DNA of 61,557 bases from positions 1-61,557 of IMG/VR virus record IMGVR_UViG_3300014165_000002. One strand, written 5' to 3'. Source of the stretch: a virus (taxonomy: Duplodnaviria > Caudoviricetes). Both the position numbers and the translations under genes were made by a program. Under the pieces are notes generated by a model. The model did no database searches. It was not told the origin of the DNA and saw only the letters and a list, made by a program, of their open reading frames with translations. Positions 42,772-59,706 of the stretch are shown here, in pieces. How positions within the stretch are numbered: the stretch's first letter is position 1; every line of letters begins with the position of its first letter.

Positions 42772-44640
42772 TCATGTGCCGCCTCCTGGCGGCATGCCCA
42801 TCGCCGCGCCGAGGGCGTTCCCGCCGCTCAGATTGGCCTGAGACAGCGTCTTGGCGGCGTTAACCGCAGCCATCGCCTGTTCTGGCGCCTGCGCCTGCTG
42901 CTGGCCCTTCTCGCGGGCGTCGTCGTGCGCTTTGACCTGCTCCTCGGTGAAGAAGAGGTCGGACGGGCAATTGTTGATCTCGGCATATCGGCGCCATGCC
43001 TTGCCGAGGTCCATGATGCGCAGCGGATCAGGCAGGCCCGCCGCCTTAGCCGCGCTGGACAGCGAACCGCCGATGCCGAGGGTGTCTTTCAGCGCCACGC
43101 CTTCCGCCGCCAGTTGCGCGAGACGCATGATCGACGTGTAGGTGATCTTGAGTGGGATCGGGCCGCCGCCGACACCTCCCTGCATCAGGCTCTTCGGCAT
43201 GGGCTCGAGGAGCTTGCGACGCTCGGCGATCGCCATGATTCGCCGCAGTATGATCGACAACTGGCCTTCGACGTTGCGGATGACCGGGCCGAGTTCCTGA
43301 AGGCGCTCCAAATCGCGTTTCGTGAGTTCCAGCTCGTTGCGCGGCTGCACGCCGGCCATGCGTGTGATGGCCATGAAGACTTCGACGTAGAGGCCTTTCT
43401 CGATTCTCGCGTTGACCAAGGCGATGTCTTGAGTCAGCGCCGGCAACCACTGCGGCTGAACCTCGAACAGGGGCCAAAAGCCCTTTTTCGGGCCGTCGCT
43501 CGTGCAATAGGTCGTCTGGCCTGGCATGGTCGAGGCGGGCTCGTTCTTCAGCGATGGGTCCGCGCCCATGGGCGGCCGAACGCCCTTTTCGATGTATTCC
43601 GCCTTGCGCAGCGTCTCGCGCTGCACCTGCTTGTTGTCGCCCAGAGCGTCCATGCAGGGCCCGCGGCCGTAGGCGTCGTTGCTCGTCGTGGCCCAGCGGA
43701 ACGCGGCGAAGGCGCGCTCGTTGAAGCCGCGCTTGCTCAAAGGACGAAGGCCCTTCTCGGCCTTGATCCAGTAGACCTCACGCCATGTGAAGCGGGCCGG
43801 GACATACTGGATCGAGCCAGCCTTGCCGCCGCGGCCGCGGCCGCGGCGCGCGATCGGATAGTTTGGCTCGATGCAGTGGCACACGACGAATTCGACGCCA
43901 TGCGAGCCGCCCCCTTCGGTCCACATCGTCTGGATTTTCTGCGGGCAGTTCTCCAGCCCAAACATGTCGACGATCTGCTGCACGGTCTGGGTGAATTCGC
44001 GCTCGAACCGATCGACCGAGTTCCTGCCGCCGACGCCGAGATAATATTCCCCAGGCGCTGGCAAATAGAGGCGGATCACGTCCTCCTCGTCCTCGTAGAT
44101 GATGACCGGCGACGTCGCAAAGACCGTGAGGTCCCTGAACATCGAGGCCATTTCCTCGTAGAAATTGGACTCGTCGAGGATCTTGCCGACGCGGCGCTGC
44201 GTGTCTTCCAGCCACTCCTTGGCGTCGGCGTCCAGTTCGACGCCGCTCAAGGCGCTTTCGAACTTCCACCACGGGCGCGCGGGATTGGTGAGGCCGGTCC
44301 ACATGCCGGTGGCGCATGTGCGCACCGCGAGAAGGCCGGTCGAGTCGATGATGCTGTCGTTGATCTGGCCGCCGCGCCACATGCGGTTAGCTGTGACGAG
44401 CCACACGTATCTTCTTGGTTCGAAGAATTCAGCAAGTCTACTCCAATGGGTCCACCAACTCCATCGCCATTGACGATCGGAGTTCATCTGCTGTTCAAGG
44501 TGGCGGTAAACGTCGTCCCATTCCGGGTCCGGTTCGGTCGGCTTTCGCCTCGGCTCGACGGGCTGCTTCGAAAGCAGCGTCGGTCCCATGTGCTCGTATG
44601 AGGCCGGATCTTCGAGATCGACGAGGGAGAGGCGCGCCAT
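42772..44640 (-). CDS. Portal (head-tail connector) protein
   Basis: DSTG..A...ATGM..GLT.PARPW, SNFY, YGRGP.MDALGD, E.L..LGPV. Confidence 0.92.
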   Translation of the reverse strand: MARLSLVDLEDPASYEHMGPTLLSKQPVEPRRKPTEPDPEWDDVYRHLEQQMNSDRQWRWSWWTHWSRLAEFFEPRRYVWLVTANRMWRGGQINDSIIDSTGLLAVRTCATGMWTGLTNPARPWWKFESALSGVELDADAKEWLEDTQRRVGKILDESNFYEEMASMFRDLTVFATSPVIIYEDEEDVIRLYLPAPGEYYLGVGGRNSVDRFEREFTQTVQQIVDMFGLENCPQKIQTMWTEGGGSHGVEFVVCHCIEPNYPIARRGRGRGGKAGSIQYVPARFTWREVYWIKAEKGLRPLSKRGFNERAFAAFRWATTSNDAYGRGPCMDALGDNKQVQRETLRKAEYIEKGVRPPMGADPSLKNEPASTMPGQTTYCTSDGPKKGFWPLFEVQPQWLPALTQDIALVNARIEKGLYVEVFMAITRMAGVQPRNELELTKRDLERLQELGPVIRNVEGQLSIILRRIMAIAERRKLLEPMPKSLMQGGVGGGPIPLKITYTSIMRLAQLAAEGVALKDTLGIGGSLSSAAKAAGLPDPLRIMDLGKAWRRYAEINNCPSDLFFTEEQVKAHDDAREKGQQQAQAPEQAMAAVNAAKTLSQANLSGGNALGAAMGMPPGGGT

Positions 44641-44643
44641 CGG

Positions 44644-44904
44644 TTACTGCCCCAGGCCGGATTTCAGCGCGCCGGTTGTCGTGACCGGCGTTGCAGCGCC
44701 CTGCGATCCGCTGTCGACGGTGCCGCCGAATCCGCCCTTGCCGCTGGCTGCGGCTGCTGCGGCGCGCTGCGCGGCCTGCTCTTGCTGCACGGTGCTGCTC
44801 GCCATCGTCGAGGGCAGCGGAGGGGGTGGAGGGGGTGGAGGGGGGAGCATCATCTGCTGTTGCGCGCCGCCGCCGAAGAGGTTGGAAAAAAAGCTCATCA
44901 TCAC
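44644..44904 (-). CDS. Small Pro-rich virion protein upstream of the portal
   Basis: Poly-Pro tract, G.GGT..SG.QG, ends LGQ. Confidence 0.7.
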   Translation of the reverse strand: MMMSFFSNLFGGGAQQQMMLPPPPPPPPPLPSTMASSTVQQEQAAQRAAAAAASGKGGFGGTVDSGSQGAATPVTTTGALKSGLGQ

Positions 44905-47900
44905 CCTCGATATGGGTTGAAATCCCGCCCTCCGCCTTCCTCGGCGAAGGGGTTGAACTCCTGGTGCCTTGGCAAGACGAGAGGCGGCGCTGATTGGCGC
45001 GGCGTCACGGGCTCCGCGAAGGTCAGGCAGTTGAATACCAAAACGCCATTCGCGTAGAACGCATTATCACGATTTAGGGTCAGGTTGTAAACCATCGTCG
45101 GCGGCACGTTTTCGGTTCGAACACTGACGGGAACAACAAGCGGTCTTCCGATGGCGGTTAGCAGCGAACGCCTTCCCGCAATGAGCGCATGACCGAGTTT
45201 CTGTGAAATAACGTCTAAAAGCAACACTTTGCATACACGCTTTTGAGCAAAATCTTGCTCGCTTGAAGTATGCCTCGAATTCATTTCCGCATTTCTCGCA
45301 TGTATTTGTAAAAACTCGACGATCAACCCAAGCTTCCTTGCCATTCGAACTATGCCAAGCGATGCCTTCCGGAGAAGAATGCCAAGCCTTAGCCAACTCT
45401 CGCGCGCGTTCGCCATGGTTATCGTTGAGCCAGTGGCCAAGGGCTCTCCTCCCGTCTGAATGCAGGGCATAGTGCTCTGCCTCTTTGAGCAATTCCAAGT
45501 TGCTAATCTCGCTGCGCCGCCAATCATCGTCGCGATGATGGACCTCGTGACCATCCGGGATTGGGCCATGATGCTCGGCTCATACGCGCCTATGCAAAAG
45601 CCGCTGACCGAAAACTGGCTGGCGAGAGGAATAATAGCGACCGCTCTTTTGAAGCCAATAGACCGTGCCCTTGTAAACAATCCGCTTGTCATCAGCCATT
45701 TGCGTCGCTCAACCAATGGCGAAATAGCCATGGTCAAGAGTAGCGCGTCAAGTCTGACTTTGCCATAGCCAAACACAAAAATCTCGTGATCCGGCGTGCC
45801 AACGAGCTTCGATCCATCCGAAAATTCGACTGTCGTCAACTGCATGGTCTCATGCGCCCACACTTTTATGGAAAGCGCCTCCCCAAGCGGCGTAAGGATG
45901 CGTTCATTCCCGGCTCGCTCAATCGGGAGCCACCCGCCTGTCGTGGCGATTCTCGTTCCTGCAACGAGGCAAAAAGCGTCCCCCTCGTCGGGGCTGAAAC
46001 CGAGTTCCTTCTTAATATCCTCTTTGGGTTCGAGGAACATTTGATCGTTCCGCATCCCGTATTTCGTTTGCGAGAGGGTTTTGACCAGTTCCTCGCTATC
46101 GGTCAGGGCGCCGCCACGCCTGATCCATTCGCAGGCGTCCCAATACATCTCCATGCGCTTGTTGAAAAAGCGCTTTTTCTCGTGCGGCGAGCCGCCGAAA
46201 TAGATGCTGATCGGCGCGCGCCCGAGCTGGAGCATCCCGTCGCGCCAGCCAGCACCGTAGCCGCCGCCCGCGTCGATGAACGCCGCGTCCGCCTCGCCGC
46301 CGATCGAGGGAAATTCGTTCCAGTGGCGCACCGCGATCGCCGAGCCGTCGGTCGAGTTGACGTGGCGCATCTTCTTGGGGACGAGCGCCTGCAGGCCTTG
46401 TCGCGGGAAGATGACGCTCTGATCGTCGCCATAGTCGGCCACGTCGATGCCGAGCACCTTGGCGCCGGTCGGCCCGCGATAATAGCGGTTCATCGCGGCG
46501 CGAACCTCGTCCTCACTGATGAGGGCGTTGAAGTCCTGGTCGGGGAATTCGCCGAAAATCTTCACGCGAATCCAGGGGTTCTCCCGCCCGTATTCTTGGA
46601 TCTGCTCCAGCGCGTGCTTGATCGAAACGCGCGGCGTCCGGCTTGGGTCGTCGGGGTCGGCCGTGATTGAAATGACCTCCCACAGCCGATTTGCATCGTT
46701 TCGGCGCATCCACGCGCGGAACAACGGGCCGCCGCGCCGCGTTGGATTGCCGGCCTGGATGATATGCGCCTCGATCGGTTCTCCCGAGAAAATAGCCTCG
46801 CATGTCGGCATGACCGCGTCGGGATAGTCGCCGGTCTCGTCGAGCAGCCACATGACATAGGGCGCGTGCAGGCCCGCCAGGGCGTTGCCGATCGCCTCCT
46901 TGTCGGCCGAGCGCGCCCAGCATCGCGCCTCGATACGCCAGGTCTCGGCGTGGCCGCGCATGTAAATCTTGTCGCCGGTCTTTTCAAACAACCGCTGAAG
47001 CAGCGGGCTCTGGATATGCCAGCGGGAAAGCTCGGTCCACAGGCCGGTCTTGAGGTTGGCGCCGGTGATCGACGCGCAGCCGATCATCGAGTGAGGCCGC
47101 GTGAGAATGAAGTTCCAGCCGATCCACGCGAGGACGGTGGTGTTGTGCGTGACGATGAAATCGTTTGTCAGGTAGCAGTGCGAGGGATGCTCGACGGCGA
47201 TGCACATGCACTCGTCCTCGCCGGCAGGCTCGATCGACGTGATGAACCGCGTGAGATAGCGCGCCGAGGTCGGCGAGCGCAGCGGGTCTTTCCAGCGCTC
47301 GGCTTTGTGCGCGATTCGGAAGGGATTGAAGGGGAGGCAGACCGAGACGCGGTAGCAGTCGCGGCATTCGACCATTTGCCCGTCAGGGGCACGGTAGCGG
47401 CCCTCCTTGATCGCCGCCTTGATGAGGGCAACGCCGCCGAGCGAGCGGGCGAGCCACACCACGTCGTTCGCCAGGCGCTCGGACGTGGTGGAATACTCCA
47501 TGTGGCCATCGTCGCCGATGCAGCCGTCCGTGTCCATCAGGCCGCAAATCAGATCGCGGCGCTGGATGATCGAGGCGTATTTGTAGTTGCCGGGGATGAA
47601 CCGCTCGTGGCTTCCAAGATAGAAGCAGTCGAGTTTTTCGAAATCCGCCCTCGACTGTCTGATAAACACGCCTTTCCCATCACTGTGGCGGCTCGTTTCA
47701 TAACCGCGCTTTGCTATTTCATCCTGAACCTCCTGATAAGGTTTCGAGTATTTTGGCTCTCCCTTACATCCGTCGCCGATCCACACGCCGACAAGATATG
47801 GGTCAAGCGGCTGAATCATGTGCGGGAATTGCGCGCCGCCTTGGCGTGGAATCTCGAACTGGTTGCGGCCGTTGTGGGTGGCGTCCTTCACCCCGCGCGC

Positions 47901-48572
47901 GATGATTCGATCGGTCGTAAGGATGGAATATCCATCAGGCGGCGTCAGATAGCCGCCCTGCGCCCGCGCTCGGCACTCAATCGAGCATTGGATGTCGCGA
48001 GCGAGTTCTCTCGCGTCGATCGAAAGCGTGGGGTCTGGCACGTCAAAACGCGGAGTCTTACTCGCCAGACCATGCTCGCTATGAGTCAGGCGTCTCCATC
48101 CGCCCCGCTCGGGCGTCCAGTCTGGAGACTGCCTCATCTTGAAGTGGCGGCGCTCGGTGCGCCCGCGCACCTTCCACAAGTGATCTCCACTGCAAATTGA
48201 CGACGAACCATCGTCGAAAGTCACCCTGAAGAGAGGCATTACACCCTGCGGGTAGACGCCGACAACGCGTGTTGACGATCCATCCTCAGCAAACACGAAG
48301 TCGCCAGGCCTTAAATCGCCAAATCTTCTAAGACCGAAGGGCGTTTCTATAAGCTCTTGTTTTCTAATAGCTTTCCCAGGCCCAGTGCAAGCTTTCATGG
48401 CGAGACGCGGGCATGTCGGGTAACTCCGCAGCGCGCGCTCCTGCCACGCATCGGGCTGCGCGCCGAAAAGCTCGCGCACCATCAATACCGGGTCAACGGA
48501 GTATTTGTAGAAGGCGTCTGCGACGACTCGCTCTTGATCAGATAGGGAATTATATAGTTCACTCCCGCGCAT
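44901..48572 (-). CDS. terL: Terminase large subunit with two inteins
   Basis: After intein removal: Walker A GPGK|TT, LLDE Walker B, GNP, GIDVA.YGDD, SPDEGDAF|CLTFA; current start is supplied by the IS end. Confidence 0.92.
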   Translation of the reverse strand: MRGSELYNSLSDQERVVADAFYKYSVDPVLMVRELFGAQPDAWQERALRSYPTCPRLAMKACTGPGKAIRKQELIETPFGLRRFGDLRPGDFVFAEDGSSTRVVGVYPQGVMPLFRVTFDDGSSSICSGDHLWKVRGRTERRHFKMRQSPDWTPERGGWRRLTHSEHGLASKTPRFDVPDPTLSIDARELARDIQCSIECRARAQGGYLTPPDGYSILTTDRIIARGVKDATHNGRNQFEIPRQGGAQFPHMIQPLDPYLVGVWIGDGCKGEPKYSKPYQEVQDEIAKRGYETSRHSDGKGVFIRQSRADFEKLDCFYLGSHERFIPGNYKYASIIQRRDLICGLMDTDGCIGDDGHMEYSTTSERLANDVVWLARSLGGVALIKAAIKEGRYRAPDGQMVECRDCYRVSVCLPFNPFRIAHKAERWKDPLRSPTSARYLTRFITSIEPAGEDECMCIAVEHPSHCYLTNDFIVTHNTTVLAWIGWNFILTRPHSMIGCASITGANLKTGLWTELSRWHIQSPLLQRLFEKTGDKIYMRGHAETWRIEARCWARSADKEAIGNALAGLHAPYVMWLLDETGDYPDAVMPTCEAIFSGEPIEAHIIQAGNPTRRGGPLFRAWMRRNDANRLWEVISITADPDDPSRTPRVSIKHALEQIQEYGRENPWIRVKIFGEFPDQDFNALISEDEVRAAMNRYYRGPTGAKVLGIDVADYGDDQSVIFPRQGLQALVPKKMRHVNSTDGSAIAVRHWNEFPSIGGEADAAFIDAGGGYGAGWRDGMLQLGRAPISIYFGGSPHEKKRFFNKRMEMYWDACEWIRRGGALTDSEELVKTLSQTKYGMRNDQMFLEPKEDIKKELGFSPDEGDAFCLVAGTRIATTGGWLPIERAGNERILTPLGEALSIKVWAHETMQLTTVEFSDGSKLVGTPDHEIFVFGYGKVRLDALLLTMAISPLVERRKWLMTSGLFTRARSIGFKRAVAIIPLASQFSVSGFCIGAYEPSIMAQSRMVTRSIIATMIGGAARLATWNCSKRQSTMPCIQTGGEPLATGSTITMANARESWLRLGILLRKASLGIVRMARKLGLIVEFLQIHARNAEMNSRHTSSEQDFAQKRVCKVLLLDVISQKLGHALIAGRRSLLTAIGRPLVVPVSVRTENVPPTMVYNLTLNRDNAFYANGVLVFNCLTFAEPVTPRQSAPPLVLPRHQEFNPFAEEGGGRDFNPYRG
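45030..45971 (-). mobile_element. terL intein 2 (314 aa), no in-frame endonuclease
   Basis: CLVAGTRI (block A), GTPDHEIF (block B), VYNL...FYANGVLVFN|C (blocks F/G). Confidence 0.9.
45067..45699 (-). pseudogene. HNH endonuclease with zinc fingers, out of frame inside terL intein 2, interrupted by TGA at codon 40
   Basis: MADDKRIVYKG...LHRRV*AEHHGPIPDGHEVHHRD...SNLELL...CEKC..FCSKAC..CAHC..CCSRQC. Confidence 0.8.
47142..48371 (-). mobile_element. terL intein 1 (410 aa), Ala-initiated class-3 type with LAGLIDADG endonuclease
   Basis: Inserted at Walker A GK|T; starts AIRK; DHLW, CMCIAV, IVTHN; PYLVGVWIGDG and LICGLMDTDG. Confidence 0.9.
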
Positions 48573-48705
48573 CCTTTTTCCTTTCGCGTATGATCTTGGC
48601 TTTGCGGAGCTTTCTCGCTTTCGCGGGCTCGGATTTTGGCTTGGGGAGGAACGCCAAAACCTTATCCGCAACGGCGTCCAGCGCCTTTTTGTAATCGGGC
48701 TTCAT
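48559..48705 (-). CDS. IS passenger small basic protein (48 aa)
   Basis: MKPDYKKALDAVADKVLAFLPKPKS...; AGGAG RBS. Confidence 0.6.
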   Translation of the reverse strand: MKPDYKKALDAVADKVLAFLPKPKSEPAKARKLRKAKIIRERKKDARE

Positions 48706-48713
48706 CGTCGCTC

Positions 48714-49631
48714 CTAATGCGTGAGAGCTTTGTAAGTCAGGCGCTTGCCTGCAACGCCATCAATAAAGCTGTCGAGACGCTGTAGCGTGTGGCGCTTCAC
48801 GTCGCCTTCATTCAAGCGGAAGGAAAATTCATCGACATAGCGGCCCAGATGCTTCTTGCTGGTATGATGGTAGACGCCGATGATCCCGCGCTTCATGACC
48901 GCAAAGACGCTCTCGACGCCGTTGGTGGTCACGTCGTCACGGACATATTCGCCTTCGCTATGATTGACGGTTGCGTGTTCAAAGAACAGCCCATTGAGGC
49001 CGCGATAGACAGCGGCCTCGTCAGTGTGGAGCCTCGAGCCGGCCTCAACATTCTGGTGAATTTTCGTGTGGAGGGTTGCCATGTCCGTGTCTTCGACTGG
49101 CATAGCTTTCATACGCCCGCCGCGCTCGCGCATCGCGACAACGGCGGTTTTACCTACCGTGCCGCGCCCTGCCTTGAGCTTCTTGTGCTCGTGCTTGTTG
49201 GCCTCTTTCCCGCCGACATAGGTTTCGTCAATCTCGACAATGCCTTGAAGCTTTTCGAGATCGGAGCCGCAGGCTTCCCTGAGTCGGTGAAGGACAAACC
49301 ACGCTGACTTTTGCGTGATCCCGATTTCCTTCGCGAGCTGCATTGACGAAATGCCTTTTCGCGCCGTCACGAGCAAATACATGGCGTAAACCCACTTGTG
49401 CAGCGGGACGTGCGAGCGCTCGAAAATAGTGCCGGTGCGGACGGTGAAGTCCTCCTTACACTGGTTGCAGCGATAAAAGCCACTCTTTCGCGCGGTGATG
49501 CGCTCGCCAAGGCCGCAGACAGGGCAGCGCGGGCCATTCGGCCAAAGCCGCGCTTCCAGATAGGCGCGAGCGGACTCTTGGTCTGGGAACATTGCGAACA
49601 GTTCGAAAGTGGAGATGGTTGATTTAGACAT
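48714..49631 (-). CDS. IS1595-family DDE transposase
   Basis: CPVC/CNQC zinc ribbon, FTVRTGTIF, VEIDETY, HTDE, TNGVES, YVDEF.FR.N. Confidence 0.95.
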   Translation of the reverse strand: MSKSTISTFELFAMFPDQESARAYLEARLWPNGPRCPVCGLGERITARKSGFYRCNQCKEDFTVRTGTIFERSHVPLHKWVYAMYLLVTARKGISSMQLAKEIGITQKSAWFVLHRLREACGSDLEKLQGIVEIDETYVGGKEANKHEHKKLKAGRGTVGKTAVVAMRERGGRMKAMPVEDTDMATLHTKIHQNVEAGSRLHTDEAAVYRGLNGLFFEHATVNHSEGEYVRDDVTTNGVESVFAVMKRGIIGVYHHTSKKHLGRYVDEFSFRLNEGDVKRHTLQRLDSFIDGVAGKRLTYKALTH

Positions 49632-50474: not shown

Positions 50475-51154
50475 TTGGGGCGTCCTTCTTTTTCTCGCTT
50501 TTTCTCGCGCTTGTAATGGGCGGCGCGCGAGATTCCGAGGGCTTCCCAAGGCTTGCCCGTCGAGGCGGGACGTCCGCCTTTGGAGCGGGCGGCGGGAGTC
50601 GAACCCGGCGTCTTCGGCTTCGAAGGCCGCTGCTCTGCCTTTGAGCTACGCCCGCGCTTTGGTTTGGCGCCCCCGGAGGGAATCGAACCGACTTCTCCAA
50701 GGTCTCGGGCCTTGGCGCTCTGCCGTTGAGCTACGGGGGCGGGTGATGGACTATTGACTCGTTTTAGCCCGCTCCTGCGAACAATCTTGAGGATGTCGTC
50801 GCGGTGAGTGAACCATTCTCCATAGGCGCGGAAGGGCTCAAAAAACCGATGCAGCAGCTTTTCGAGGCGCTCATCGCCTTCGATCGCATAGGCCGCATCA
50901 AGCCGCTCGGGATGGCCCGTTTGAAGGCCTTTCACGCGAGAGAGCACGTCCCCGCCCGTAAATCCTATTTTGAGGAATCCGAGAGGCCCGGTCCCTTCGA
51001 TGAAGTAGACTGTTCCACGGCCCGGCGCTTGCGCATCAACTCCCGCTGATAAGCCTTCCGATCGAAGGAGCCCTTCGGCGCTCGCTTCGGCTTCGGCGAA
51101 GGCTTTTCCTTCGCTTTGGGTGGGCGCGGCTCCTGCGGCTTCTTCTCCGAGCAT
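50471..51154 (-). CDS. GIY-YIG-like (T5orf172/Mug113) protein whose frame runs through two tRNA-like genes
   Basis: VYFI...LKIGFT...RVKGLQTG.P...EKLLH..F...GEWF; C-terminal KPWEALGISRA.HY. Confidence 0.65.
   Translation of the reverse strand: MLGEEAAGAAPTQSEGKAFAEAEASAEGLLRSEGLSAGVDAQAPGRGTVYFIEGTGPLGFLKIGFTGGDVLSRVKGLQTGHPERLDAAYAIEGDERLEKLLHRFFEPFRAYGEWFTHRDDILKIVRRSGLKRVNSPSPAPVAQRQSAKARDLGEVGSIPSGGAKPKRGRSSKAEQRPSKPKTPGSTPAARSKGGRPASTGKPWEALGISRAAHYKREKKREKEGRPK
50581..50655 (-). tRNA. tRNA-Arg(UCG)
   Basis: GCGGGCG/CGCCCGC acceptor, GCTC/GAGC D-stem, loop CT-TCG-AA, GTTCGACTC T-loop, encoded CCA; single mismatches in the anticodon and T stems. Confidence 0.8.
50665..50740 (-). tRNA. 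Atypical or degenerate tRNA (anticodon loop CCCGAGA)
   Basis: GCCCCCG/CGGGGGC acceptor, D-stem, GTTCGATTC, CCA; 6-bp anticodon stem, no U33, two T-stem mismatches. Confidence 0.6.
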
Positions 51155-56914: not shown

Positions 56915-59476
56915 TCACGTGGTCCTTTCTGTCATCCATGGGGGTTGGGCGCCATCATCCCCAGGCGGGGAGCCTTTTCTTTCCTTCTCCTTGGCTTTTG
57001 CGAAAGCGATGCGGCGAGATTTTTCCCATCCGAAAATCACCGCGTCGGGATAGCGCGGCGTCTTTTGCAGCGTGTTCGCCGGAGCCACGCCGAATTTGTC
57101 CCGAAAGGCGTAATAGGCCCATCCGTCTTTCTTCCCGCGGTCGCGCGCAATCCAAATCAGCCCGGAATACCAGCGCTGCTTGGTTTCCATGTCGGCTTGC
57201 TCTTTTGGCTTGCGCTTCGAACCGATCTCGGCAAGCTCGCCCTCCTCGCAGGCGATCTTGCTTTTCGGCGCCGTCTCGAAACCGCAGGCCGGGCATTTCA
57301 GGACGCGCGCCGGCTTCATGAACGCGCATTGTGGGCACGCCTTCGGCAAGGCTTCCTTGCGCCCGGCCGCCTTCTGTTGCTCTTCCGGCTCCCATGGGAA
57401 GCTGTCGTAGTAAATCTCGTCAGGCATGCCGAGGCGGGCGATAGTGTCGCTGTGATCGAACACCAAGCAGTTTTCTTTGCCGGGGGCCGTCCGCAGCCCG
57501 CGCCCGACGATCTGCAAATAGAGCATTTCGCTGCGGGTCGGCCGCGCCATCGAAATGCAGGACACAAACGGGGCGTCCACGCCCGTCGTCATCGTGCCGA
57601 CGTTGCAGATGACTTCCAGTTCGCCCGTGCGCAGCTTGTCCACCAGCTCCTCGCGCCCGCCTGGGCCTTCGACCTTGGTGTAGGCGTCGACGTAGCCGGT
57701 GCGCACGCCAGCGGCCAGGAACTGCGCTTGCAGCGCCTGGGCATGGGCGCAGTTGACCGCGAACACCAGCGTCTTGCGCCGCTCGGCCTTCTCCAGCCAC
57801 GTCGTCACCACATCGGCGATCAGCTTCGGCTTGTTCATCGCCGCGCCAAGCTGGCCCTCGTGATAGTCGCCGGCGACGATCTTGACGTCGGAAAGGTCGG
57901 GGACGGACGGTGCGAAGGCGCGGAACGGCGAGAGATAGCCTTTCTGGATGAGGCCGTAGGTCGTCTCGACGACGATCATGCGGTCAAAATAATCGACGAG
58001 TCCCTTGCGCCAGGGCGTCGCCGAAAGCCCGATGAAGACTGTTCCGGGGTCCGCCTCGTCCATCCAGTCCTGATGAGCCTTGTGGAAAATGTGGCAGTTG
58101 TGGACTAAGACCCCTTCAGCAAAATAAGAAGGGTGTCCGCTGACGTGCAGGTTGAACACATCATCAATGCGTCCGCATTCTTTAGGCGATATACTTTCCA
58201 CCCTAACGTCGCCAAAAACCGATCCTTTTTCGCGTCCAGTTCTCGCGCCCGCGGAGAGTTGTGCGATCCACCATTCAATTCCACGCCGAGCTTTTCCGAA
58301 GGCTTCGCCAAGTCGAGCTTGTAGCTCCCGGGAATGCCATAGCCGCGCGGCATACCCGTCGTTACTGCAAACTCTGCTTTCCACTCCTCCCCCAAGATCG
58401 CAAGCATCGCTTCTTGCGGCTTCGTCATAGGCCTTCCATTCCCGCCGCGAACGCTCGGCGCGTGACCAATGCGCTTGAAGGTGGCGCGCTGTTTCTGGCG
58501 TGACGCATCCGAGTGCATCGGATTTGACAACTTCTTGGCACAGGATATCGAGCAGCATTTCTGCTGCGCCCATGCCTTTTCGCTGACGATCGCTCCGCCG
58601 GCCGTCATGGCGGAAAACATCTCTCCACAAACAACGCACATTTTTTGCGAAGAACTCGCTCGCTGCCGCCATGAGCCAATTTTTATTTTTGCGCAACCCG
58701 GACACCGCGTCCGAACCTTCCATCGACTCTCCGCCTCTAACGCATGTGGGCGGAACAGAGCGCCACATAGTTCGCAAGCCTTCACGGCTGAAAAGAAACG
58801 AATCCCTCTCCAATTCCCCGCACGCTGTCCATCCGGCACCTGAGAATGCTGGATGATTTCTGGTGATTCGCAGCGTTCGTCCATTGCTCATTCCTATGGA
58901 AATCGGCGTAGCGACGCGGCGTGAGATCGCCTTGATTCGCCCGACACCTATTGCATTACAAACATAATCACCTTCTTTCAAATCCTCAATGTTTTTCTCT
59001 CCGAAAGGAGTCATAATTTTTGTTCCGCGCACAACACACTCATCGAACAGCACGACGTCAGCCTGCGGGCGGCGGCGGCGCCCAACGGTCTGGATTGAGC
59101 AAATCTGCACGGGCGCGGTGTGATCGGTCAGGAGGTTGTCGCCCTGCACGACGCCGATGTGATCCATGCCGGCGCGCTTGAAGGCGCGATAGGTCTGCGG
59201 GATCAGGCTCAGCAGCGGGACGACGAAGGCGCATGTGCGGCCGCGCGCTCGCGCCGCGGCGAATATGGCGCTGGCGACGAGGCACTTCCCCGCGCCGGTC
59301 GGAGCCGAAAGAACCGGGCGCACGCGGCGGCGAACAATCTCCTCGACGCTATCCCGCCTCATCTTCACGTCGATCCACTCGGAAATGGCGCGGCGGCATT
59401 CGTCGACGGCGTGCTCCTGATACTCGCGGAGGATTAAAGGCTCTGCGGTTTTTGGTTCGTCAAAAAGGGTGGTCAC
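56915..59476 (-). CDS. SF2 DEAD/DEAH (RadD/YejH-like) helicase with an intein
   Basis: LREYQ, APTGAGK, DE|CH, GLSATP, TTGVDAP, RPTRS..LYLQ.VGRGLR, C-terminal CPQC/CPAC. Confidence 0.92.
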   Translation of the reverse strand: MTTLFDEPKTAEPLILREYQEHAVDECRRAISEWIDVKMRRDSVEEIVRRRVRPVLSAPTGAGKCLVASAIFAAARARGRTCAFVVPLLSLIPQTYRAFKRAGMDHIGVVQGDNLLTDHTAPVQICSIQTVGRRRRPQADVVLFDECVVRGTKIMTPFGEKNIEDLKEGDYVCNAIGVGRIKAISRRVATPISIGMSNGRTLRITRNHPAFSGAGWTACGELERDSFLFSREGLRTMWRSVPPTCVRGGESMEGSDAVSGLRKNKNWLMAAASEFFAKNVRCLWRDVFRHDGRRSDRQRKGMGAAEMLLDILCQEVVKSDALGCVTPETARHLQAHWSRAERSRREWKAYDEAARSDACDLGGGVESRVCSNDGYAARLWHSRELQARLGEAFGKARRGIEWWIAQLSAGARTGREKGSVFGDVRVESISPKECGRIDDVFNLHVSGHPSYFAEGVLVHNCHIFHKAHQDWMDEADPGTVFIGLSATPWRKGLVDYFDRMIVVETTYGLIQKGYLSPFRAFAPSVPDLSDVKIVAGDYHEGQLGAAMNKPKLIADVVTTWLEKAERRKTLVFAVNCAHAQALQAQFLAAGVRTGYVDAYTKVEGPGGREELVDKLRTGELEVICNVGTMTTGVDAPFVSCISMARPTRSEMLYLQIVGRGLRTAPGKENCLVFDHSDTIARLGMPDEIYYDSFPWEPEEQQKAAGRKEALPKACPQCAFMKPARVLKCPACGFETAPKSKIACEEGELAEIGSKRKPKEQADMETKQRWYSGLIWIARDRGKKDGWAYYAFRDKFGVAPANTLQKTPRYPDAVIFGWEKSRRIAFAKAKEKERKGSPPGDDGAQPPWMTERTT
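58097..59038 (-). mobile_element. Helicase intein (314 aa) in Walker B, no in-frame endonuclease
   Basis: CVVRGTKIMT...IEDL..GD.V; ITRNHP; VFNLHV..HPSYFAEGVLVHN|C. Confidence 0.92.
58105..58884 (-). CDS. Zinc-finger plus DUF559/Vsr-like endonuclease in the +1 frame of the helicase intein
   Basis: CELC, CPGC, CVVC, CCSISC; TKPQ...YKLDLA....KLGVELNGGSH...D.KKD.FL..LGWKVYR. Confidence 0.85.
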   Translation of the reverse strand: MDERCESPEIIQHSQVPDGQRAGNWRGIRFFSAVKACELCGALFRPHALEAESRWKVRTRCPGCAKIKIGSWRQRASSSQKMCVVCGEMFSAMTAGGAIVSEKAWAQQKCCSISCAKKLSNPMHSDASRQKQRATFKRIGHAPSVRGGNGRPMTKPQEAMLAILGEEWKAEFAVTTGMPRGYGIPGSYKLDLAKPSEKLGVELNGGSHNSPRARELDAKKDRFLATLGWKVYRLKNADALMMCSTCTSADTLLILLKGS

Positions 59477-59706
59477 CGCGCGTTCCTCCTCGCCCAATCC
59501 ATCTGCCTTCGCTTCATGCCTGCGTGCAGGTCGCGGGCCATTTTCTCGTCGTCAGGGTGCTCGCCGCCACACAGCCACACGCAATCCGCCTCAGTGATCT
59601 CGCCGCGCTTGCGTTGCGCGAGGACAGACGGCGGGGCCGGCCGATCGGGATAGCGCCGCAGGAAGGCTTTGATGGCCGGGTCGGAGTAGTCGACGTAGCG
59701 GCTCAT
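59473..59706 (-). CDS. Hypothetical protein
   Basis: Coupled to the initiator stop and the helicase start. Confidence 0.55.
   Translation of the reverse strand: MSRYVDYSDPAIKAFLRRYPDRPAPPSVLAQRKRGEITEADCVWLCGGEHPDDEKMARDLHAGMKRRQMDWARRNAR

What the first reader, a model, noticed from the sequence alone, without database searches (positions are those of the whole stretch)
45030..45971. Second, independent out-of-frame endonuclease (HNH) inside terL intein 2, apparently decaying
Seen: the -1 frame (ATG 45699 to 45067) encodes LHRRV*AEHHGPIPDGHEVHHRD...SNLELL plus CxxC zinc fingers. A TGA at 45582-45580 sits where Trp is expected, and the usual NN reads RS. The intein frame is fully open and ends FN|C rather than HN. 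Inference: it has the same architecture as the helicase intein with a different nuclease family and frame, which suggests a recurring class. The nonsense change is a sense change in the intein frame, so the nuclease can be lost without harming terminase. Both inteins are 942 nt, which may be coincidence.
Basis: partly seen in the sequence, partly recalled or inferred. Interest (0 to 1): 0.85.

Follow-up and report, generated by a model that had tools for sequence, protein, structure and literature searches.

The report
Hidden HNH nuclease gene inside terminase intein
A self-splicing protein insert (intein) in this phage's DNA-packaging gene carries, in a second reading frame, its own homing-nuclease gene that a single stop codon has just broken; the same two-frame design turns out to be common in phages and was first described in print only in 2025.

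Summary
Intein 2 of terL (45030-45971, minus strand, 314 aa) is open in the terL frame. In the -1 frame, ATG 45699 to the stop at 45067 encodes a 210-aa HNH_3 nuclease with two C-terminal zinc ribbons. It is interrupted by one TGA (45582-45580), where 65 of 70 unique relatives have Trp.

This arrangement is not a one-off. Of the 80 best IMG/VR relatives, 63 carry an intact HNH nested in the same -1 frame of a TerL intein. Another 15 are free-standing just after an intein-less terL, and 2 lie between split-intein halves. At least 42 of 62 loci in bacterial genome assemblies are nested too.

Substitutions cluster at HNH third codon positions, so the HNH frame is the selected one and the intein frame is only kept open. 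Half of the nested genes have their own Shine-Dalgarno-like motif. The window's copy lacks one.

Contigs from two runs both carry the TGA, but one run may be the window's source. The copy here is most likely a recently inactivated homing endonuclease gene.

Inteins with an out-of-frame nuclease gene were published by Gosselin et al. (2025) and Phillips et al. (2026). I did not find this HNH_3 family, or its abundance, in print.

The parts
44901..48671 (-). terL (large terminase) ORF, 1256 aa as listed from TTG 48671. The true start was not determined. It holds two inteins.
   Evidence: ORF list. PHROG terminase large subunit families: phrog_19299 E 3.9e-23 and phrog_2 E 1.2e-14. The next gene, 42772-44640, matches phrog_332, E 2.2e-96.
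45030..45971 (-). Intein 2 (314 aa), CLVAGT...VLVFN. The +1 extein residue is Cys. It sits in the TerL motif SPDEGDAF|CLTFAEP.
   Evidence: Translation. Pfam Intein_splicing and Hint_2, both below the gathering score. Alignment A2 invariants C1, T6, H62, N314. AF2 model plus Foldseek hits to solved inteins.
45702..45971 (-). N-terminal Hint splicing part of intein 2 (residues 1-90, including TPDH).
   Evidence: Block mean pLDDT 84-98. Conserved columns in A2.
45132..45701 (-). Intein-frame linker (about residues 91-280). It is kept open but shows no confident fold and is poorly conserved. The HNH gene occupies this stretch in the -1 frame.
   Evidence: Block mean pLDDT 31-63 for residues 91-280 (31-55 for residues 101-270). 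Amino-acid identity is lower in the intein frame than in the HNH frame in every identity bin.
45030..45131 (-). C-terminal Hint splicing part (residues 281-314, VYNLTL..YANGVLVFN). Its first 65 nt (45067-45131) also encode the HNH C-terminal tail and stop codon.
   Evidence: pLDDT 93-98. A2 conservation. In the family the HNH stop lies from 5 nt past to 70 nt before the intein end, and before it in all but one locus.
45067..45699 (-). HNH_3 homing-endonuclease gene in the -1 frame: 210 codons plus the stop at 45069-45067, broken by an internal TGA.
   Evidence: The AF2 model of the read-through has mean pLDDT 91.8.
45580..45582 (-). In-frame TGA at the Trp40 codon of the HNH gene. In the intein frame the changed base gives Glu131.
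   Evidence: Contigs of runs X1 and X2 show no difference here.
45703..45716 (-). The place where relatives carry a Shine-Dalgarno-like motif. Here it reads TTGGTTGAGCGACG, with no GGAG, GAGG or AGGA, and it includes the HNH-frame stop TGA.
   Evidence: L003 reads TTGGAGGAACGCAG at the same place.

Best explanation
Intein 2 of terL is a composite selfish element made of two parts. The first is a class-1-type mini-intein (Hint domain) that splices itself out of the terminase. The second is a separately translated homing-endonuclease gene of the HNH_3 type, with two C-terminal zinc ribbons, nested in the -1 frame of the intein's non-essential linker.

In intact relatives the nuclease is made from its own ATG, often with its own Shine-Dalgarno-like motif, on the terL message. 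I infer that it cuts intein-less terL alleles near the conserved motif SPDxxDAxxLTF, so that repair copies intein plus nuclease gene into them.

Selection on terL keeps the intein frame free of stops. Selection for homing keeps the HNH frame intact. In this phage the HNH gene carries a TGA where relatives have Trp (TGG would differ by one base), and it lacks the upstream Shine-Dalgarno-like motif. It is therefore most likely a recently inactivated gene at the decay stage of the homing cycle. The terminase is unaffected, because the same base reads Glu (where relatives mostly have Gly) in a part of the intein frame that is modelled without confident structure.

Shown: the two frames, the families they belong to, the recurrence of the design, the frame-specific substitution pattern, and agreement of contigs from two runs at the TGA. 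Inferred: splicing, independent translation, the target site, homing, and loss of function.
For: - HNH identity: Pfam HNH_3 E 1e-10 and PHROG 15471 E 1.3e-23. There are 28 homologues of 160-236 aa at up to 60% identity. The AF2 model has pLDDT 91.8.
- Intein identity: C1, TPDH and N314 with +1 Cys are invariant in the family. The modelled Hint halves match solved inteins and BIL domains (Foldseek probability 1.00, 15 hits at E<=0.001). The linker has pLDDT 31-55.
- Recurrence: 63 of the 80 IMG/VR loci examined are nested in the same -1 relation, out of 583 confirmed relatives. At least 42 of 62 genome-assembly loci from many phyla are nested too. In cultured phages phiCDHM19, TJE1, Highwayman and LS06-2018-MD07 the match lies under the terL CDS.
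- Open frame: 0 stops in all 65 loci where the intein frame spans the HNH ORF, against a mean of 4.6 in the 16 loci where it does not. The mean chance of an open frame after synonymous shuffling is 0.13 per locus.
- Selection: differences per site are highest at HNH codon position 3 in every bin (for example 0.345 against 0.128 and 0.094 at 70-85% nucleotide identity). Amino-acid identity is 0.82 in the HNH frame and 0.60 in the intein frame.
- Own start: a Shine-Dalgarno-like 4-mer is present in 27 of 54 unique nested genes against an 11% background, binomial p about 2e-12. HNH-frame stops lie a few codons upstream of the start in many loci.
- Origin: 15 relatives are free-standing immediately after an intein-less terL. 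The terL tails printed for several of these (L004, L007, L010, L016, L018) show the motif intact within about 100-200 nt of the HNH gene. PAE1 and Shemara show the same layout.
- The break: W in 65 of 70 unique rows at the TGA column. The TGA is in contigs of two runs, one of which may be the source. No suppressor tRNA is present.
- Foreign composition: GC 0.50-0.54 inside the intein against 0.60-0.70 in most of the neighbouring terL and portal windows.
Against: - There is no expression, splicing or cleavage data for any member.
- Apart from the TGA, every family-invariant residue is kept and the window's branch (0.33) is not longer than that of L003 (0.46). Low-level read-through of UGA, or a TGG allele in the population, cannot be excluded. 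Contigs drop rare variants, and run X1 may be the window's own source.
- Half of the nested genes (27 of 54) show no Shine-Dalgarno-like motif.
- The fold match of the HNH model to I-HmuI is not significant: Foldseek E 0.39 and profile E 0.051.
- The target site is inferred from gene position alone.
- The HNH tree is poorly resolved (11 of 66 inner branches well supported). The number and direction of changes between free-standing and nested forms are therefore unknown.
Confidence: 0.78

Rival explanations
1. The HNH gene in this phage still works. The UGA is read through at low frequency, by near-cognate Trp-tRNA, or the TGA is one allele of a polymorphic population. Enough nuclease is then made for homing, possibly with the benefit of low toxicity.
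For: All other family-invariant residues are intact and the branch is not lengthened. Contigs cannot show minor alleles.
Against: None of the other 69 unique family rows has a stop at this or any other matched position. No suppressor tRNA is present. The long standard-code ORFs show that the phage does not read TGA as sense in general. The Shine-Dalgarno-like motif is also missing. The TGA is present in contigs of two samples.
Confidence: 0.12
2. The nested HNH is not selfish but a packaging helper. It would work with the terminase in the way the HNH proteins encoded next to terminase genes of cos phages do, which would explain why the family always sits in or beside terL.
For: All 80 IMG/VR loci have the gene inside or directly after a terL-like gene. 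HNH genes next to cos sites and terminase genes are a known theme (abstract of PMC3592412, seen in the listing).
Against: The domain is HNH_3, the type I recall as typical of homing enzymes such as I-HmuI, joined to zinc-ribbon DNA-binding modules. The gene is broken in this phage, which nevertheless reaches word depth 16.7 in run X1, so it is dispensable. Position inside an intein, or between split-intein halves, is the hallmark of homing genes.
Confidence: 0.06
3. The HNH frame is the wreck of a once in-frame intein endonuclease domain that was shifted by indels. Alternatively it is reached by programmed ribosomal frameshifting from the intein frame, not by its own start.
For: In-frame HNH inteins exist, according to section 8 of bioRxiv 10.1101/2025.01.02.630785.
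Against: None of the 142 related loci examined has the HNH in frame with the intein. The ORFs begin with a conserved Met and N-terminus, half with a Shine-Dalgarno-like motif, and stops lie just upstream in the HNH frame in many loci. Free-standing full-length relatives exist.
Confidence: 0.03
4. The TGA or the whole overlap is an assembly or sequencing artefact.
For: The window is a metagenomic contig.
Against: Contigs of two runs from different samples and studies cover 45314-46015 with no differences, although X1 may be the source. The overlap is reproduced in more than 100 unrelated contigs.
Confidence: 0.01

Closest known systems
[quoted passage not shown]
   Same: The nuclease ORF is nested on the same strand, in frame 3 (= -1) of an intein. 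The intein-frame linker has no recognisable structure. The host gene is often terL. The proposed origin is invasion of a mini-intein by a free-standing nuclease gene.
   Different: The nuclease family differs. Theirs is InterPro IPR004211, with the catalytic core at residues 1-67 matching T4 endonuclease VII. Ours is Pfam HNH_3 at residues 34-76 followed by two zinc ribbons. Pfam Endonuclease_7 was not among the Pfam hits at E<=0.1. Two tblastn searches of the phage collection with family members did not return the phages they name, but I could not check that those phages are in the collection. Their set is actinophages only and is described as rare. Their supplements were not visible to me.
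Cyanobacterial dnaX intein with an out-of-frame LAGLIDADG endonuclease (Phillips, DeSimone & Gogarten, bioRxiv 10.64898/2026.09.14.751524; abstract and section 17 read). Non-canonical inteins of Gorbalenya 1998 (not held, known only from citations).
   Same: An overlapping ORF inside an intein. There is purifying selection on the nuclease frame and relaxed amino-acid constraint on the intein frame. Secondary invasion of a mini-intein is proposed.
   Different: LAGLIDADG rather than HNH. The host gene is cellular (dnaX) rather than phage terL. The relative frame differs.
[quoted passage not shown] 2025, PMC11855218; abstract and section 4.3 read)
   Same: An HNH endonuclease ORF hidden in another frame of an insertion that stays open in the host gene's frame.
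   Different: ShiLan has no splicing domain and no detectable ribosome-binding site. Here the insertion is a recognisable intein, and half of the family has a Shine-Dalgarno-like motif.
Fractured genes: split inteins with a free-standing endonuclease gene between the halves (Dassa et al. 2009, PMC2677866; found passages read)
   Same: Relatives L062 and L078 show exactly this layout with the present HNH family. The model of endonuclease capture by inteins applies.
   Different: In the window the intein frame is continuous. The fractured genes of Dassa et al. carried GIY-YIG or Vsr-like nucleases, not HNH.
Free-standing homing endonucleases that target the insertion site of a neighbouring self-splicing element ('collaborative homing', recalled from Zeng, Bonocora & Shub 2009; not read here)
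   Same: Free-standing relatives sit just after an intein-less terL. In the terL tails I printed, they lie about 100-200 nt from the intein insertion motif.
   Different: That case involves a group I intron. Cleavage specificity has not been tested for this family.

Membership tests
Intein (Hint-domain protein-splicing element, class 1 type) | N-terminal nucleophile (Cys or Ser at position 1) | tested here: met
   Cys1 is invariant in 40 of 40 aligned family inteins.
Intein (Hint-domain protein-splicing element, class 1 type) | Block B TxxH motif | tested here: met
   The window reads TPDH. H62 is invariant in A2.
Intein (Hint-domain protein-splicing element, class 1 type) | C-terminal Asn followed by Cys, Ser or Thr at +1 | tested here: met
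   N314 is invariant, and +1 is Cys in the window.
Intein (Hint-domain protein-splicing element, class 1 type) | Penultimate His | tested here: not met
   The window has Phe, as do L003 and L005. Only 19 of 40 family members have His. From recall, this residue is not universal among active inteins.
Intein (Hint-domain protein-splicing element, class 1 type) | Hint fold | tested here: met
   AF2 gives block mean pLDDT 84-98 for residues 1-90 and 93-98 for residues 281-314. Foldseek hits solved inteins and BIL domains with probability 1.00 and TM-score (by target) up to 0.82. The Pfam matches are below the gathering score.
Intein (Hint-domain protein-splicing element, class 1 type) | Actual protein splicing | not testable with these tools
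   Inferred from the essential host gene and the intact motifs.
HNH_3 / His-Me finger homing endonuclease (I-HmuI-like) | HNH_3 profile match above the curated cut-off | tested here: met
   41.5 bits against 24.8, E 1e-10, residues 34-76.
HNH_3 / His-Me finger homing endonuclease (I-HmuI-like) | Catalytic and metal-binding His and Asn residues | tested here: met
   H54, H55, N67 and H76 are invariant in 70 of 70 rows and present in the window. H80 is present. The 'NN' pair reads RS.
HNH_3 / His-Me finger homing endonuclease (I-HmuI-like) | Uninterrupted reading frame | tested here: not met
   TGA at codon 40.
HNH_3 / His-Me finger homing endonuclease (I-HmuI-like) | Structural similarity to a solved HNH homing enzyme | tested here: inconclusive
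   I-HmuI (1u3e) ranks 2 in Foldseek, but at E 0.39. The profile search gives E 0.051. The VIA-align libraries were unavailable.
HNH_3 / His-Me finger homing endonuclease (I-HmuI-like) | Site-specific cleavage and homing | not testable with these tools
[quoted passage not shown] 2025) | Nuclease ORF lies inside the intein in another frame while the intein frame stays open | tested here: met
[quoted passage not shown] 2025) | Intein-frame product of the overlap has no recognisable structure | tested here: met
   Block mean pLDDT 31-55 for residues 101-270.
[quoted passage not shown] 2025) | Nuclease belongs to one of the described out-of-frame types (endonuclease VII-like, antisense LAGLIDADG, antisense VSR-like) | tested here: not met
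   Pfam gives HNH_3 only. The ORF is on the same strand.
Split-intein 'fractured gene' (Dassa et al. 2009) | Host gene and intein are broken into two ORFs with the nuclease gene between them | tested here: not met
   The window's intein frame is continuous. The feature is met in relatives L062 and L078.

The most novel reading that the evidence does not exclude
This HNH_3 / TerL-intein pair may be one ancient capture that has since spread across phages of many bacterial phyla. That would make it a very large dual-coding intein family, in which the free-standing copies after terL and the split-intein forms are escapes from, or intermediates of, the nested state. It would then be a natural series for watching how inteins gain and lose endonucleases. 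The window's TGA allele would be a snapshot of the loss step, with the terminase shielded by the frame offset.
Probability: 0.3. Interest if true: 0.7.

Novelty: new variant of a known kind. Interest (0 to 1): 0.55.

Why it matters
Inteins with the homing nuclease encoded in another frame were described as rare and were reported mainly from actinophages and cyanobacterial dnaX. This one window led to a different nuclease family (HNH_3 with zinc ribbons) in which the arrangement is the majority state. It is nested in 63 of the 80 IMG/VR loci examined and in at least 42 of 62 genome loci, and in four cultured phages the match lies under the annotated terL CDS.

This has three consequences.

- Many inteins called 'mini-inteins' or 'inteins with a degenerate endonuclease' may really be full mobile elements.
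- Gene callers may miss a common phage gene. In the two cultured-phage terL regions I opened (phiCDHM19, TJE1) no separate HNH gene is annotated.
- The family offers free-standing, nested, split and freshly broken forms for testing the 'splicing first, endonuclease captured later' model and the homing cycle.

It is also a clean natural example of long-term dual coding, in which one frame is selected for sequence and the other only for staying open.

Tried and rejected
- Close relatives by single-sequence patterns in IMG/VR: none for either frame. The alignment-based scan was needed.
- megablast of terL against cultured phages: no match.
- Code 4 or a suppressor tRNA as the explanation for the TGA: rejected. 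The only tRNAs are Arg(tcg) and Ser(cga), and the long ORFs are intact under table 11.
- Counting changes between free-standing and nested states on an HNH tree: 11-13 changes on the quick tree, but well-supported branches force only 1. Neither one origin nor many is shown.
- Fold match of the HNH model to solved structures: no hit at E<=0.001. The profile against PDB sequences is weak.
- Complex prediction, the search of protein representatives, the protein-atlas search and the metagenome-contig scan were not used, because the question was answered without them.
- Whether the endonuclease VII-like family of Gosselin et al. is the same as this one: I could only test it indirectly. Their supplementary tables were not open to me and could bear on the novelty claim.
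- Gorbalenya 1998 could not be read.
- 'Not in print' rests on searches of the held library only.
Full report
**The locus.** The window is a complete IMG/VR virus record of 61,557 bp with CheckV completeness 95. The minus-strand ORF 44901-48671 (1256 aa) matches several PHROG 'terminase large subunit' families. It is followed by a gene that matches phrog_332 at E 2.2e-96. The ORF holds two insertions.
- Intein 1 lies at about residues 101-510, in the Walker-A loop. It carries an in-frame LAGLIDADG endonuclease (Pfam Hom_end and LAGLIDADG_3).
- Intein 2 is residues 901-1214, which is 45030-45971.

**The observation.** In the terL frame, intein 2 reads CLVAGTRI...TPDH...VYNLTL..YANGVLVFN followed by Cys, without a stop.

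In the -1 frame, an ORF starts at ATG 45699 and ends at the stop codon 45069-45067. A stop lies four codons upstream of the ATG. The ORF encodes 210 residues with one internal TGA at 45582-45580.
- Read with X at the stop, it matches Pfam HNH_3 (E 1e-10, above the curated cut-off) and PHROG 15471 'HNH endonuclease' over residues 17-194 (E 1.3e-23).
- The big protein collection holds 28 homologues of 160-236 aa, the best at 60% identity.
- At the TGA column, 65 of 70 unique family rows have Trp, 4 have Tyr, and only the window has a stop.
- H54, H55, N67 and H76 are invariant in the family and present here.
- The usual 'NN' reads RS. R is unique at the first position, and S is seen in 3 of 70 rows at the second. 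However, the two nearest intact homologues also deviate there.

The intein region is GC-poor, 0.50-0.54 against 0.60-0.70 in most neighbouring windows.

I examined the best 80.
- In 63 of them the frame one base downstream of the HNH frame is open across the whole HNH gene. This is the same relation as in the window. That frame belongs to a long ORF of about 750-1240 aa, or one truncated by a contig end. The ORF carries the intein N-terminal motif C[FL]xxGT...H upstream and ...YYANG[IV]LVxN|[CST] downstream.
- Ten of ten sampled long ORFs have Hint or intein Pfam hits. Six of ten have terminase domains.
- The intein frame has no stop in any of the 65 loci where it spans the HNH ORF (the 63, plus L061 and the window). 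The same frame of the 16 loci not spanned has 1-11 stops, mean 4.6. Synonymous shuffling of the nested genes gives an open frame in only 13% of trials on average.
- Among 2016 pairs of nested genes, differences per site are always highest at HNH codon position 3. That position is position 2 of the intein codon. Amino-acid identity is higher in the HNH frame in every identity bin, for example 0.82 against 0.60 at 70-85% nucleotide identity.

So the HNH frame is under purifying selection, and the intein frame is only kept open. AlphaFold models agree.
- The read-through HNH folds with mean pLDDT 91.8. It shows an N-terminal sheet, an HNH core, long helices and two zinc-ribbon-like units.
- The intein-frame product has confident Hint halves (residues 1-90 and 281-314). 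These match solved inteins. Between them lies a stretch of about 180 residues with block mean pLDDT 31-55.

**Expression signal.** The nested ORFs start with a conserved Met and N-terminus. Of 54 unique genes, 27 have GGAG, GAGG or AGGA 4-17 nt upstream, against 11% of background windows. Many have an HNH-frame stop just upstream. This favours separate initiation on the terL message over frameshifting. The window has no such motif. It reads TTGGTTGAGCGACG where its closest relative L003 reads TTGGAGGAACGCAG.

**Where the family lives.** The remaining 17 IMG/VR loci fall into two groups.
- Fifteen are free-standing HNH genes directly after an intein-less terL. In the terL tails I printed (for example L004, L007, L010, L016, L018), the SPDxADALCLTF-type motif is intact and lies about 100-200 nt upstream of the HNH gene. 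Most of those printed are followed by a long downstream ORF, as the HNH genes of phages PAE1 and Shemara are by the annotated portal gene.
- Two (L062, L078) have an ORF ending in the intein N-part, then the HNH gene, then an ORF beginning with the intein C-part. This is the 'fractured gene' layout of Dassa et al. 2009.

In one genome per GTDB species, 62 loci were found. Of these, 42 are nested in a covering ORF of at least 300 aa. Two more are truncated. One (L133) is nested in the other relative frame, one (L114) is unclear, and 16 are not nested. Record titles span Actinomycetota, Chloroflexota, Bacteroidota, Bacillota, Cyanobacteria, Planctomycetota, Patescibacteria and Proteobacteria.

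In cultured phages phiCDHM19, TJE1, vB_AbaM_Highwayman and LS06-2018-MD07, the match lies under the annotated terL CDS. In the two regions I opened (phiCDHM19, TJE1), no separate HNH gene is annotated.

The insertion point is always in the same conserved TerL motif but is not identical. Examples are SPD|C.., DA|C.., DAF|C.., DH|C.. and HDDQ|C... I recall this motif as part of the nuclease domain.

The HNH tree mixes free-standing and nested forms (11-13 changes), but support is weak.

**The break in this phage.** L003, the closest relative, has the same two-intein TerL (50% identity over 1010 residues), an intact HNH (57% identity) and a Shine-Dalgarno-like motif. In the window, the TGA base makes intein codon 131 GAG (Glu), where relatives mostly have Gly. 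This is what a TGG to TGA change would give.

Logan contigs of two wetland-metagenome runs from different samples and studies cover the site with no difference. X1 has depth 16.7 and may be the source. X2 record 6 spans 45314-46015 at depth 3.5. Contigs cannot exclude a minor TGG allele.

No suppressor tRNA is encoded, and the phage's long ORFs show standard stop usage. Apart from the TGA, the missing Shine-Dalgarno-like motif and the RS pair, the gene looks intact. The inactivation is probably recent.

**Mechanism proposed.** A free-standing HNH homing gene beside terL probably targets the conserved motif DNA. A mini-intein inserted in that motif makes the allele immune, and the nuclease gene moved into the intein's dispensable loop. 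In the -1 frame, the HNH coding sequence creates few stops: about 4.6 in free-standing copies, against about 13 in the other frame. This may explain why that frame prevails.

The composite element then homes as a unit. Once a lineage's alleles are occupied, selection on the nuclease lapses and it decays. Selection on terminase, meanwhile, keeps the other frame open. Splicing, translation, target and homing are all inferred.

**Comparison with the literature.** The architecture is already in print.
- Gosselin, Arsenault & Gogarten describe actinophage inteins, many in terL. These carry an endonuclease VII-like gene in frame 3, antisense LAGLIDADG genes or antisense VSR-like genes. The authors predict that such elements are under-annotated.
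- Phillips et al. 2026 show frame-specific selection in the dnaX intein.
- Arsenault et al. 2025 describe an out-of-frame HNH without an intein.

I found no paper that pairs inteins with this HNH_3 family or with the cultured phages named above (searches, in the held library only; supplements closed; Gorbalenya 1998 not readable). I therefore rate the finding as a new variant of a known kind. The design is the same, but the nuclease family is different and very widespread.

**Other points.** The helicase gene 56915-59497 has a 314-aa intein in its DE|CH motif with a same-strand, +1-frame ORF (58105-58884) that matches DUF559/Vsr-like nucleases.

Noticed in passing
window 58097-59038 (-), alternative ORF 58105-58884 (-): The helicase gene (56915-59497) carries a 314-aa intein in its DE|CH box. 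A 259-aa ORF on the same strand, in the +1 frame, matches Pfam DUF559 (Vsr-like, E 2.5e-7, above the cut-off). This is a second out-of-frame nuclease in the same phage. The published VSR-like cases were antisense.
   Followed up: partly
window about 47142-48371 (-): terL intein 1 sits in the Walker-A loop (GPGK|...THN|T) and has an in-frame LAGLIDADG domain. Its first residue appears to be Ala (Leu in L003) rather than Cys or Ser, which may mean a class 3-type intein. The boundaries were not verified.
   Followed up: no
L062:287-2692 and L078:2573-4802: Two IMG/VR relatives have terL broken into an ORF ending with the intein N-part, the HNH gene, and an ORF starting with the intein C-part. This is a split-intein 'fractured gene' with this HNH family.
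   Followed up: partly
L133:3483-4034: One genome-assembly locus (titled as a Vampirovibrio MAG) has an HNH_3 gene (E 5.8e-16) nested in a TerL-like intein ORF in the other relative frame. This suggests a separate capture or a frame change.
   Followed up: partly
L003-L082 intein junctions: The intein insertion point differs by one to five codons among relatives within one conserved TerL motif (SPD|C, DA|C, DAF|C, DH|C, HDDQ|C). Even the window (DAF|C) and its closest relative L003 (DA|C) differ by one codon.
   Followed up: no
window 48714-49631 (-): An IS1595-family transposase gene (DDE_Tnp_IS1595 E 3.8e-47, plus its zinc ribbon) lies directly upstream of terL in the phage genome.
   Followed up: partly
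L085 (phiCDHM19 443-2842), L086 (TJE1 terL), H16, H20: The annotated terL CDS in several cultured phages covers an HNH_3 match. In the two regions opened (phiCDHM19, TJE1), no separate HNH gene is annotated.
   Followed up: partly
window 50581-50740 (-): Two adjacent tRNA genes, Arg(tcg) and Ser(cga).
   Followed up: no
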